This document shows positions 58,330-59,060 of a stretch of DNA of 64,000 nucleotides, in pieces. Made by a program: the position numbers and the translations under genes. How positions within the stretch are numbered: the first letter of the stretch is position 1; the number at the start of each line of letters is the position of its first letter. This DNA comes from Escherichia coli. GTDB lineage: Bacteria; Pseudomonadota; Gammaproteobacteria; Enterobacterales; Enterobacteriaceae. The stretch is taken from the NCBI RefSeq assembly GCF_048403405.1, contig NZ_CP183129.1, one strand, 5' to 3'. The notes under the pieces are model-generated. The model saw only the letters and a list, made by a program, of their open reading frames with translations. It ran no database searches and had not been told where the DNA came from.

Positions 58330-59060
58330 AAATGCGCCTATAAGGCTCTCTTACCAGCCGCGCCCTAACAGGCGCACACGATCTGACATTTGCATCCAAC
58401 TTCGTTACTTACGGCCCGTAAACGGGCTGCCCGGATAGGGAATCGATAACTGCTCTCCCATTTTATCCTCTTCAAGCTGGTGCTTTATGTAATCCTGTAT
58501 CTTCGCCGTGTTCTTACCCACCGTATCGACGTAGTACCCTCTGCACCAGAACTCCCTGTTCCTGTATTTGAATTTCAAATCACCAAACTGCTCGTAAAGC
58601 ATCAGACTGCTTTTCCCTTTCAGATATCCCATAAAGCCGGATACGCTCATTTTGGGCGGGATCTCCACAAGCATATGGATATGATCTGCACAGCATTCAG
58701 CTTCCAGAATCCGTACACTTTTCCACTCACACAGCTTTCTCAAAATACTGCCTATTGCTCTACGCTTCTCTCTGTAGAACACCTGTCTTCGGTATTTTGG
58801 CGCAAAAACTATGTGATATTTACAGTTCCATCGGGTGTGCGCTAAGCTCTTTTCGTTCCCCATTGGGACCCCCTTTCGATTTCTTGTTTGACACTTGCAG
58901 TTGCCAGACCGCAAGGTGTTTTAACAAATCAAAAGGGGTTTTAATAACTGGCTTAAAGCTGAAAGCTTTCCGGAACCCCCAGCCTAGCTGGGGGTTTTCT
59001 GTGCACAAAAAAGCCGACTCATCAAAGTCGGCGTCGTACGAATCAATTGTGCTATGCAGT
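58330..59060 (-). mobile_element. IS200 (IS200/IS605 family); boundaries approximate
   Basis: tnpA plus the characteristic left-end hairpins (58976-58995 and 59013-59032 on the plus strand); ends estimated from the usual ~0.7 kb length. Confidence 0.65.
58405..58863 (-). CDS. tnpA: IS200 HUH (Y1) transposase TnpA
   Basis: 152 aa from MGNEKSLAHTRWNCKYHIVFAPKYRR; HIH motif (CCADHIHML). Confidence 0.9.
   Translation of the reverse strand: MGNEKSLAHTRWNCKYHIVFAPKYRRQVFYREKRRAIGSILRKLCEWKSVRILEAECCADHIHMLVEIPPKMSVSGFMGYLKGKSSLMLYEQFGDLKFKYRNREFWCRGYYVDTVGKNTAKIQDYIKHQLEEDKMGEQLSIPYPGSPFTGRK

What the first reader, a model, noticed from the sequence alone, without database searches (positions are those of the whole stretch)
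58330..59060. IS200 copy between zntB and the dbpA upstream region
An IS200-type element with a full-length HUH transposase (152 aa, HIH motif) and the characteristic left-end hairpins lies between zntB and the small ORF preceding dbpA. K-12 does not carry IS200 as I recall. The left-end hairpin followed by a T-run is placed where it would terminate zntB read-through. The exact termini could not be fixed by eye.
Basis: partly seen in the sequence, partly recalled or inferred. Interest (0 to 1): 0.4.

Follow-up and report, generated by a model that had tools for sequence, protein, structure and literature searches.

The report
IS200C inserted in FnrS sRNA terminator

Summary
The IS200 call is correct. 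The element is a full-length IS200C: a 709-bp core plus 2 ambiguous T, so a 711-bp insertion at about 58297-59007 on the minus strand. Its 152-aa TnpA has the HIH motif at 61-63 and Tyr125, and both subterminal hairpins and the 5'UTR stem-loop that hides the ribosome-binding site are present.

They omit the right-end hairpin (58305-58323) and include 53 nt of a host gene, the sRNA FnrS (59007-59126; Rfam 134.8 bits).

The "left-end hairpin followed by a T-run" is FnrS's own terminator, which K-12 has without any IS200. The IS split its T8 tract, leaving T6 on the FnrS side.

- **This site:** occupied in only 8 of 5,426 complete E. coli genomes, but in several lineages with different junctions.
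- **IS200C in general:** common, present in 2,063 of those genomes.
- **Insertion pattern:** in 121 distinct left-end flanks from many bacteria, 98% have a strong hairpin plus T-rich tail directly upstream, against 20-34% in controls. In Y. pestis these include the GlmZ, Spot 42 and leu-leader terminators.

The element is already known. A possible weakening of FnrS, and direct recognition of the hairpin by the transposase, are inferences that remain untested.

The parts
58297..59007 (-). IS200C insertion sequence, 711 bp relative to the empty site. Each end is ambiguous by 1 nt because it lies in a T-run. The core GTGCAC...ATATTTA is 709 bp (59006 down to 58298).
   Evidence: K-12 empty-site alignment. 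The window flanks joined with T8 match many genomes at 100% over 810 bp. The shared sequence of four copies stops at these ends. The core is 709/709 alignable with 1-7 differences. With nt 1 = 59007 the published IS200 numbering fits exactly.
58405..58863 (-). tnpA, a Y1 HUH transposase of 152 aa, with HIH at 61-63 and catalytic Tyr125 (YIKHQ).
   Evidence: Pfam PF01797 3.8e-38. NCBIfam NF033573 1.9e-43. PDB relatives 2ec2 at 4e-23 and IS608 TnpA 2a6m at 4e-19. The protein is identical to the TnpA annotated as WP_000526135.1 in other copies.
58974..58996 (-). Left-end perfect palindrome AACCCCCAGCTAGGCTGGGGGTT, IS200 nt 12-34. It is described as a bidirectional terminator protecting tnpA and is presumed to be the left subterminal hairpin bound by TnpA.
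   Evidence: Single exact match in the window, none expected by chance. Folds as a 10-bp stem. Function taken from PMC4513863 and PMC5435999.
58870..58938 (-). tnpA 5'UTR stem-loop, IS200 nt 69-138, which sequesters the Shine-Dalgarno sequence. The window copy has a private G at 58877 where other copies have A, turning a U-A pair into U-G.
   Evidence: RNA fold -39.7 kcal/mol, z = -3.99. Rfam STnc490 match at 58873-58996, 143.4 bits. SNP. Function.
58305..58323 (-). Right-end subterminal hairpin CCTCCGGCTATGCCGGAGG, followed by ATATTTAT up to the right end. On the plus strand it is followed by TTTTT and so looks like a terminator in both directions.
   Evidence: Terminator-like on both strands in the scan. 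Folds at z = -4.2 and -3.8. Conserved in all copies compared.
59007..59126 (-). fnrS, the FNR-activated Hfq-dependent sRNA, a host gene. Terminator stem-loop at 59013-59032. The T-run is now 6 (59007-59012), against 8 in the empty site.
   Evidence: Rfam RF01796 134.8 bits, gathering score 60, model positions 1-119. The body is identical to K-12 fnrS, annotated at 1409129-1409250. T8 in the empty site.
58294..58296 (-). Remainder of the split FnrS terminator T-run on the right-end side of the IS, followed by GCCTGTTAT as in K-12.
58063..58236 (-). ynaL, a proline-rich small protein. This is the 'small ORF preceding dbpA'. It now lies 711 bp further from fnrS.
   Evidence: Pfam YnaL 2.1e-40. 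Annotated as ynaL in K-12 and in strain 4621.

Best explanation
The feature is an intact copy of IS200C, the E. coli form of IS200 (IS200/IS605 family). Its single protein, TnpA, is a Y1 HUH transposase. By analogy with IS608 and ISDra2 (established knowledge, not tested here), TnpA excises one DNA strand as a circle and pastes it into single-stranded target DNA, using subterminal hairpins at both ends.

What is shown: the element inserted precisely into the T8 tract of the Rho-independent terminator of the sRNA gene fnrS. It lies in the same orientation as fnrS and zntB. Six T remain attached to the FnrS hairpin and the rest sit at the right end of the IS.

This position follows a general rule. 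In 121 independent sites, IS200-group left ends lie 5-8 nt after the last G:C pair of a strong flanking hairpin, directly after a TTTnT motif. That is the T-tract of an intrinsic terminator, with the terminated transcript running into the IS.

What is inferred: the T-rich motif is read by the A-rich guide (..AGAA) just 5' of the left-end palindrome, as in IS608. The flanking hairpin is probably recognised directly, perhaps because hairpin plus T-rich tail mimics the element's own right end (hairpin + ATATTTAT).

Once inserted, tnpA is kept nearly silent by four barriers: the host terminator, the left-end palindrome, the stem-loop that hides the Shine-Dalgarno sequence, and the antisense RNA art200 (literature).

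A further, weaker inference: cutting the FnrS T-run from 8 to 6 may impair FnrS 3' end formation and Hfq binding in this lineage.
For: Identity and completeness.

Precise insertion: the K-12 empty site has GGC-T8-GCCTGTTAT, while the window has GGC-T6-[IS]-T4-GCCTGTTAT. The window flanks rejoined with T8 match many genomes at 100% over 810 bp.

Same rule at other IS200C copies: the upp-uraA, gnd-ugd and rph-pyrE copies each sit after a terminator hairpin plus T5-7.

Wide sample of 121 distinct left-end flanks: 98% have MFE <= -8 kcal/mol in the last 40 nt (median -18.0). Random positions give 34% (median -6.4), and positions matched for a T-run give 20-25%. T frequency at positions -5 to -1 is 98, 116, 101, 77 and 119 of 121. 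The gap between hairpin and IS is mostly 5-8 nt.

Hairpin rather than terminator function: in strain EC190329 an IS200C lies inside the dbpA coding sequence, directly after a 9-bp-stem hairpin followed by TTAT.

Right end as target mimic: in tandem IS1541 copies the left end abuts ...CCGGAGGATATTTAT (L071 and L118).

Other RNA terminators hit in Y. pestis: GlmZ, Spot 42 and the leu leader.

Recurrence at fnrS: there are three junction types (T6|T4, T7|T4, T9|T3). Three of the lineages have flanks 1-2% diverged from the window, and the IS alleles differ.

Strand: GC skew of the window plus strand is negative. The tnpA-sense strand is therefore on the lagging-strand template, as the family rule predicts.

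FnrS inference: terminators of Hfq-dependent sRNA genes carry 7 or more T, and transcripts with shortened poly(U) or 3' extensions lose Hfq binding (PMC5558911, PMC4509938).
Against: The exact cleavage points cannot be fixed because both junctions lie in T-runs.

The hairpin association could be partly due to selection, since insertions just after terminators are the least harmful. A preprint reading a similar statistical signal takes it as a context that limits transposase expression (10.1101/2025.07.22.666184).

The IS608 paradigm has no known binding site for a hairpin in the target. The sample was collected through one exact 23-nt left-end palindrome and is dominated by Y. pestis (about 55 sites), so it covers only one IS200 subgroup.

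Six U followed by GU may still terminate and bind Hfq adequately. Most mRNA terminators have fewer than six T. Two of the other lineages carry T7 and T9 at the same junction.
Confidence: 0.85

Rival explanations
1. One reading: the hairpin plus T-run next to zntB is the IS200 left end, and the element brings it in to stop zntB read-through.
For: IS200 does carry a left-end palindrome described as a bidirectional terminator. The element is co-oriented with zntB.
Against: The hairpin followed by a T-run (59013-59032 plus 59007-59012) is part of fnrS (Rfam 134.8 bits). It is present in K-12 and in thousands of genomes without the IS. The true IS palindrome (58974-58996) is not followed by a T-run on this strand.
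Confidence: 0.03
2. The element seeks only a T-rich tetra- or pentanucleotide. The near-universal neighbouring hairpin reflects survival of harmless insertions downstream of terminators, not recognition of the hairpin.
For: The family paradigm needs only a short target sequence (established knowledge on IS608 and ISDra2; for the ISDra2 pentanucleotide). The preprint interprets upstream terminators as contexts that favour IS persistence. T-tracts of 5 or more are typical of terminators.
Against: Only 20-25% of T-run-matched control positions in the same loci have a comparable hairpin, against 98% of IS sites. Spacing to the hairpin is narrow, at 5-8 nt. An insertion that disrupts dbpA still sits right after a 9-bp hairpin. 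Y. pestis is known from general knowledge to tolerate many gene-disrupting IS insertions, yet about 55 IS1541 sites there follow the rule.
Confidence: 0.2
3. The copy is an inactive fossil, and the shared position in several strains reflects one old insertion spread by descent or recombination.
For: IS200 is notoriously dormant. The 8 genomes carry the IS at the same T-run.
Against: The ORF and both ends are intact, and TnpA is identical to the common IS200C protein. Flanks in the window lineage are 100% identical to empty-site genomes, so that insertion is recent. The other occupied lineages have 1-2% diverged flanks, different IS alleles and different T counts at the junction. E. coli genomes carry up to 35 places matching IS200C.
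Confidence: 0.07
4. The insertion has no effect on FnrS: six U plus the unchanged hairpin suffice for termination and Hfq binding.
For: The FnrS body and terminator hairpin are unchanged. Many functional terminators have fewer than six T. The occupied allele persists in several related clinical isolates.
Against: Terminators of Hfq-dependent sRNA genes have 7 or more T. Termination at the seventh or a later T is reported as necessary for functional SgrS and RyhB, and 3'-extended forms do not bind Hfq.
Confidence: 0.5

Closest known systems
IS200 of Salmonella enterica (707 bp) and its E. coli form IS200C
   Same: Single tnpA gene. The left-end palindrome falls at nt 12-34 and the 5'UTR stem-loop at nt 69-138 when nt 1 = 59007. 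Full-length Rfam STnc490 match. RefSeq annotates the same locus in strains 4621, TUM1226 and MS 69-1 as an 'IS200/IS605-like element IS200C family transposase'.
   Different: Nothing essential. The inserted length is 711 bp (709-bp core), and there is one private substitution at 58877 in the 5'UTR stem.
IS1541 of Yersinia pestis and Y. pseudotuberculosis
   Same: Identical 23-nt left-end palindrome, the same right-end hairpin, and the same placement after a hairpin plus T-run. IS1541 also lands at RNA-gene terminators: GlmZ, Spot 42 and the leu leader.
   Different: The spacer is TGTGCCCAGAA rather than TGTGCACAGAA, and the copy number is much higher.
IS608 (Helicobacter pylori) and ISDra2 (Deinococcus), the mechanistic paradigms of the family
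   Same: Homologous TnpA (2a6m 3.9e-19, 2xm3 1.9e-16). No terminal inverted repeats, subterminal hairpins, and insertion 3' of a short target sequence. Orientation is consistent with the lagging-strand template.
   Different: Those elements also carry tnpB, and their targets (TTAC, TTGAT) are not described as needing an adjacent hairpin. Here the target is TTTnT 5-8 nt after a flanking hairpin.
Mobile elements that home to structured intergenic DNA: group IIC introns after intrinsic terminators, and IS that target REP sequences
   Same: Insertion next to a host hairpin in a fixed orientation, which spares coding sequence. REPs as IS targets are mentioned in PMC3333891. The group IIC intron case is from my own recollection.
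   Different: The enzymes are unrelated (reverse transcriptase-ribozyme; DDE or DEDD transposases). This is an analogy of outcome only and was not tested.

Membership tests
IS200/IS605 family, IS200 group (IS200C) | Encodes a Y1 HUH transposase (TnpA) with the HUH motif and one catalytic tyrosine | tested here: met
   PF01797 3.8e-38. NF033573, an equivalog model, scores 147.7 bits against a cut-off of 55. HIH at 61-63 and Y125-x3-Q. The 'dhih' and 'Yi..q' motifs align to solved TnpA structures.
IS200/IS605 family, IS200 group (IS200C) | tnpA is the only gene, with no tnpB, and the element is about 700-711 bp long | tested here: met
   711-bp insertion containing one 152-aa ORF of the family.
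IS200/IS605 family, IS200 group (IS200C) | No terminal inverted repeats; subterminal hairpins at both ends | tested here: met
   Left palindrome at 58974-58996, 11 nt from the end. Right hairpin at 58305-58323, 8 nt from the end. The ends TGTGCAC... and ...ATATTTAT are not inverted repeats of each other.
IS200/IS605 family, IS200 group (IS200C) | No target-site duplication | tested here: inconclusive
   T8 becomes T6 plus T4 around a 709-bp core. The two extra T can be IS ends or a 1-2 nt duplication. The sequence cannot decide.
IS200/IS605 family, IS200 group (IS200C) | [quoted passage not shown] | tested here: met
   Rfam STnc490 143.4 bits over model positions 1-124. Folds. Positions match the published numbering.
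IS200/IS605 family, IS200 group (IS200C) | Transposition through single-stranded DNA ('peel and paste') | not testable with these tools
   Inferred from homology to IS608 and ISDra2 TnpA. Strand orientation relative to GC skew is consistent.
FnrS sRNA (Rfam RF01796) | Sequence and structure match to the family model, in the conserved zntB-fnrS-ynaL-dbpA position | tested here: met
   134.8 bits against a gathering score of 60, model positions 1-119. Identical to K-12 fnrS apart from the T-tail, with the same gene order.
FnrS sRNA (Rfam RF01796) | Terminator with a long T stretch (7 or more), as required for functional Hfq-binding sRNAs | tested here: not met
   Only 6 consecutive T (59007-59012) followed by GTG. 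The criterion comes from PMC5558911 and PMC4509938. The consequence for function was not tested.

The most novel reading that the evidence does not exclude
IS200-group transposases recognise a hairpin plus T-rich tail in single-stranded DNA, a structure that mimics the element's own right end. They therefore home to intrinsic terminators in one orientation. This would explain both their harmlessness and their long-term persistence. As a side effect they trim the U-tails of Hfq-dependent sRNAs: FnrS goes from 8 to 6 T in this E. coli lineage, and GlmZ and Spot 42 are hit in Y. pestis. That would create natural hypomorphic alleles of sRNA genes. In the library I could search, I found only a family-level statistical note of upstream terminators (a 2025-26 preprint). 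I found no description at nucleotide level and none in terms of mechanism. The older IS200 and IS1541 papers and reviews could not be read, so prior description cannot be excluded.
Probability: 0.3. Interest if true: 0.6.

Novelty: already known. Interest (0 to 1): 0.3.

Why it matters
As an IS200 copy it matters little. IS200C is present in 38% of complete E. coli genomes, and RefSeq already annotates it at this very locus.

Two side results are worth keeping.

First, the gene next to it is the anaerobic regulator sRNA FnrS. The insertion shortens its terminator T-run below the length reported as necessary for functional Hfq-binding sRNAs. A small group of clinical isolates (4621, MS 69-1, TUM1226 and relatives) may therefore carry a natural fnrS hypomorph that can be compared with near-identical empty-site strains.

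Second, IS200-group elements are placed almost invariably in the T-tract behind a host hairpin. This gives a simple, testable rule for where this 'dormant' element goes. It may also help explain why the element is tolerated, and it helps to fix IS ends in annotation.

Tried and rejected
- **Perfect-stem hairpin search.** It found hairpins at only 88 of 121 flanks, because many terminator stems have mismatches or bulges. I replaced it with MFE folding against matched controls.
- **Foot-distance criterion of 2-10 nt.** It failed for a third of the sites, only because upstream A-tracts pair with the T-run. I replaced it with the distance from the last G:C pair.
- **Ungapped flank mismatch counts.** These were meaningless where T-run lengths differ. 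I redid them with gapped alignment.
- **Hit H6 (EC190329).** It was first counted as a ninth genome with this insertion. It turned out to be a different IS200C site, inside dbpA.
- **Weak Rfam hits.** Ysr202 (29.5 bits against a gathering score of 315) and BSnc120 at 58260-58347 are far below threshold. The IS right-end hairpin explains them.
- **Promoter scan.** It found no sigma-70-like promoter in 57900-59400, so nothing can be said about outward or tnpA promoters.
- **Literature.** Odaert 1998 (IS1541), Siguier 2014, He 2015 and Beuzón 1999 are not held. I therefore could not check whether terminator targeting by IS200 or IS1541 was described there. Searching IS200 together with FnrS found nothing relevant.
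- **Absence of IS200 from the whole K-12 genome.** I could not test this directly. Only the empty site and a literature table bear on it.

Full report
**What is at the coordinates.**
The minus strand of 58405-58863 encodes a 152-aa protein. It matches Pfam Y1_Tnp (3.8e-38) and the NCBIfam equivalog model transpos_IS200 (147.7 bits, cut-off 55). Its nearest solved structures are archaeal IS200-like transposases and IS608 TnpA (2ec2 4e-23, 2a6m 4e-19). It carries HIH at residues 61-63 and Y125 in YIKHQ. The region upstream of the start codon matches the Rfam family STnc490 over the whole model (58873-58996, minus strand, 143.4 bits, gathering score 56). The core sequence GTGCAC...ATATTTA is 709 bp. 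It aligns without gaps to IS200C copies from other loci and strains, with 1-7 substitutions, and the TnpA protein is identical to the one RefSeq names WP_000526135.1.

**Where the element really ends.**
I aligned the window to K-12 MG1655, whose gene order here is zntB, fnrS, ynaL, dbpA.
- K-12 reads ...GAGTCGGC-T8-GCCTGTTAT.
- The window reads ...GAGTCGGC-T6-[GTGCACAGAAAACCCCC ... CCGGAGGATATTTA]-T4-GCCTGTTAT.

When the window's own flanks are rejoined with T8, the 810-bp construct matches many E. coli genomes at 100%. The ancestral site in this lineage was therefore T8, and the insertion is 711 bp: the 709-bp core plus two T that cannot be assigned to either side.

If nt 1 is placed at 59007, the published IS200 landmarks fall exactly on what is seen. 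These are the terminator palindrome at nt 12-34 and the 5'UTR stem-loop at nt 69-138 (PMC4513863). They correspond to the palindrome at 58996-58974 and the stem-loop at 58938-58870. The element is thus about 58297-59007, not 58330-59060. It also gains 53 nt of host DNA.

The host DNA between zntB and the IS is the sRNA gene fnrS (59009-59126 on the minus strand, Rfam RF01796, 134.8 bits, gathering score 60). Its body is identical to K-12 fnrS. On this strand, the only hairpin followed by a T-run near the left end of the IS is the stem at 59013-59032 with T6 at 59007-59012. That is the FnrS Rho-independent terminator. It exists in K-12 without any IS200, so it is not an IS200 hairpin and was not brought in to stop zntB read-through. 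It is the target of the insertion. The real IS200 left-end palindrome is followed by CCGGAAAG.

Transcripts from zntB or fnrS meet the FnrS terminator first and the IS palindrome about 20 nt later. In Salmonella that palindrome is reported to stop about 85% of impinging transcription (PMC5435999).

**How common it is.**
- IS200C is widespread. Of 5,426 complete E. coli genomes, 2,063 hold a copy covering at least 80% of the element, with up to 35 places per genome.
- The window itself holds one copy.
- Genomes of the window's lineage show 13-20 places for the 1.3-kb query, a count that includes the locus itself.
- The fnrS site is rare. Nine genomes gave full-length matches. One of them (EC190329) turned out to carry the IS elsewhere, inside dbpA, which leaves eight.
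- Those eight are not one clade. Strains 4621 and MS 69-1 have flanks identical or nearly identical to the window's and a T6|T4 junction. TUM1226 and OX030728 match the 1.3-kb query at 99.9%, but their junctions were not read.
- The other occupied lineages have flanks 1-2% diverged from the window and different IS alleles.

| Strain | Junction | Other difference |
|---|---|---|
| MEW | T6\|T4 | none noted |
| AST205 | T7\|T4 | none noted |
| UCPROB-002 (UCPROB-001 matches the query equally but was not fetched) | T9\|T3 | left-end variant GTGAAC |

Independent insertions into the same T-run are the simplest reading.

**Why it is there.**
The three other IS200C copies I fetched lie between upp and uraA, gnd and ugd, and rph and pyrE. 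Each sits directly after a terminator hairpin and T5-7, in the orientation of the upstream gene.

It gave 121 distinct left-end flanks in Yersinia pestis (IS1541), Vibrio, Brenneria, Dickeya and Edwardsiella. It also hit Oxalobacter, Mailhella/Desulfovibrio, Bacillota and other metagenome-assembled genomes.
- 98% of these flanks fold with MFE <= -8 kcal/mol in the last 40 nt (median -18.0).
- Random positions of the same loci give 34% (median -6.4).
- Positions that merely follow a T-run give 20-25%.
- The five bases before the conserved left end are T in 98, 116, 101, 77 and 119 of 121 sites.
- The last G:C pair of the flanking hairpin lies 5-8 nt away in 97 of 121 sites.

Three further observations argue that the hairpin itself matters, not only selection for harmless sites:
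- The EC190329 copy disrupts dbpA, yet it lies right after a 9-bp-stem hairpin plus TTAT within the coding sequence.
- In tandem IS1541 copies, the second left end abuts the first right end...CCGGAGGATATTTAT, which is itself a hairpin with a T-rich tail.
- Y. pestis is a genome known to tolerate many disruptive IS insertions (general knowledge), yet it follows the rule at about 55 sites.

Rfam scans of the Y. pestis loci show IS1541 directly after GlmZ, Spot 42 and the leu-operon leader terminator. A paper also notes that IS1541 interrupts pheL-pheA in Yersinia (PMC3082878).

**Mechanism, with shown and inferred parts separated.**

*Shown:*
- an intact TnpA and both subterminal hairpins;
- a precise 711-bp insertion in a T-tract;
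- a fixed orientation;
- the statistical association with hairpins;
- negative GC skew of the window's plus strand, which places the tnpA-sense strand on the lagging-strand template.

*Inferred from the IS608/ISDra2 paradigm (homology; family description in PMC3333891):*
- single-strand excision and integration;
- reading of the T-rich target by the A-rich bases (..AGAA) just 5' of the left palindrome. These bases are nearly invariant across subgroups: spacer positions 8-11 are A, G, A, A in 100-121 of 121 sites.

*Inferred with less support:* direct recognition of the flanking hairpin, possibly as a mimic of the right end.

*From the literature only:* repression of tnpA by the palindrome, the stem-loop that hides the Shine-Dalgarno sequence, Hfq and the antisense RNA art200. 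The Rfam STnc490 hit is on the tnpA-sense strand, whereas art200 is described as antisense. The hit therefore marks the region rather than proving that RNA.

**Possible consequence for FnrS.**
K-12 fnrS is annotated through the eighth U. In the window the run is U6 followed by GUG. Work on SgrS and RyhB reports the following (PMC4509938, PMC5558911):
- terminators of Hfq-binding sRNA genes carry seven or more T;
- termination must occur at the seventh or a later T to yield functional sRNA;
- shortened poly(U) tails or 3'-extended read-through forms no longer bind Hfq.

By that criterion the window's fnrS allele is below threshold. Whether FnrS is actually impaired was not tested, and I rate it as about even odds. 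The element also moves ynaL and dbpA 711 bp away from fnrS, behind two more hairpins. Any effect on them is unknown.

**Comparison with what is known, and novelty.**
The element is IS200C, and RefSeq annotates it as such at this locus in several genomes. It meets every family criterion I could test. Target duplication is undecidable because of the T-runs.

[quoted passage not shown] It finds the strongest signal for IS200/IS605 and reads this as a context that limits transposase expression. I found no nucleotide-level or mechanistic description, and nothing on IS200 at fnrS. The older IS200 and IS1541 papers and the family reviews are not in the library, so I cannot claim the targeting rule as new.

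**Verdict.**
The element itself is ordinary and already known. The fnrS terminator hit and the hairpin-plus-T-tract rule are the points worth keeping.

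Noticed in passing
window 59007-59126 (-): The sRNA gene fnrS lies between zntB and the IS. RefSeq annotation of the matching genomes (for example strain 4621) also has no fnrS feature, although K-12 does.
   Followed up: yes
L078 1012-1368; L076 2839-3089; L101 2568-2813 (Yersinia pestis NCTC5923): IS1541 left ends lie 10-11 nt after the Rfam matches to GlmZ, Spot 42 and the leucine operon leader, in the same orientation. These are insertions in the terminators of two Hfq-dependent sRNAs and of an attenuator.
   Followed up: partly
L127 about 1500-2290 (E. coli EC190329); empty counterpart at window 57965-58010 (-): An IS200C copy interrupts the 5' part of dbpA. It sits directly after the hairpin CCCAACTCA...TGAGTTGGG plus TTAT, which lies inside the coding sequence.
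   Followed up: partly
L006-L066 (Oxalobacter, Mailhella/Desulfovibrio, Bacillota, Peptococcaceae, Saccharibacteria and Elusimicrobia MAGs; Vibrio ruber): The 23-nt IS200 left-end palindrome is identical in elements from very distant phyla, while the 11-nt spacer differs by subgroup. Many hits are at contig ends. Mis-binning of metagenome-assembled genomes or horizontal transfer could both contribute.
   Followed up: no
L071, L118, L072, L074 (Y. pestis): Tandem IS1541 copies occur in which one right end (...CCGGAGGATATTTAT) is directly followed by the next left end, with palindromes 710 nt apart.
   Followed up: no
window 58877: The window copy has a private G where all nine other IS200C copies compared have A. 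It lies in the 3' arm of the 5'UTR stem-loop and changes a U-A pair to U-G. The closely related strains 4621 and MS 69-1 have A.
   Followed up: partly
L090 1568-2367 (Y. pestis): The Rfam Phe_leader match on the opposite strand overlaps the right end of an IS1541. The right-end hairpin plus T5 on that strand may stand in for the pheL attenuator terminator.
   Followed up: no
window 55596-56531 and upstream; L002 1-1532: In the matching genome (strain 4621) ttcA is preceded by uspF. In K-12 the Rac prophage (intR) abuts ttcA. This lineage therefore seems to lack Rac at this site.
   Followed up: no
window 58480-58845 (+): A 121-aa ORF lies antisense to tnpA. I found no evidence that it is a gene, and it is probably a by-product of the tnpA reading frame.
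   Followed up: no
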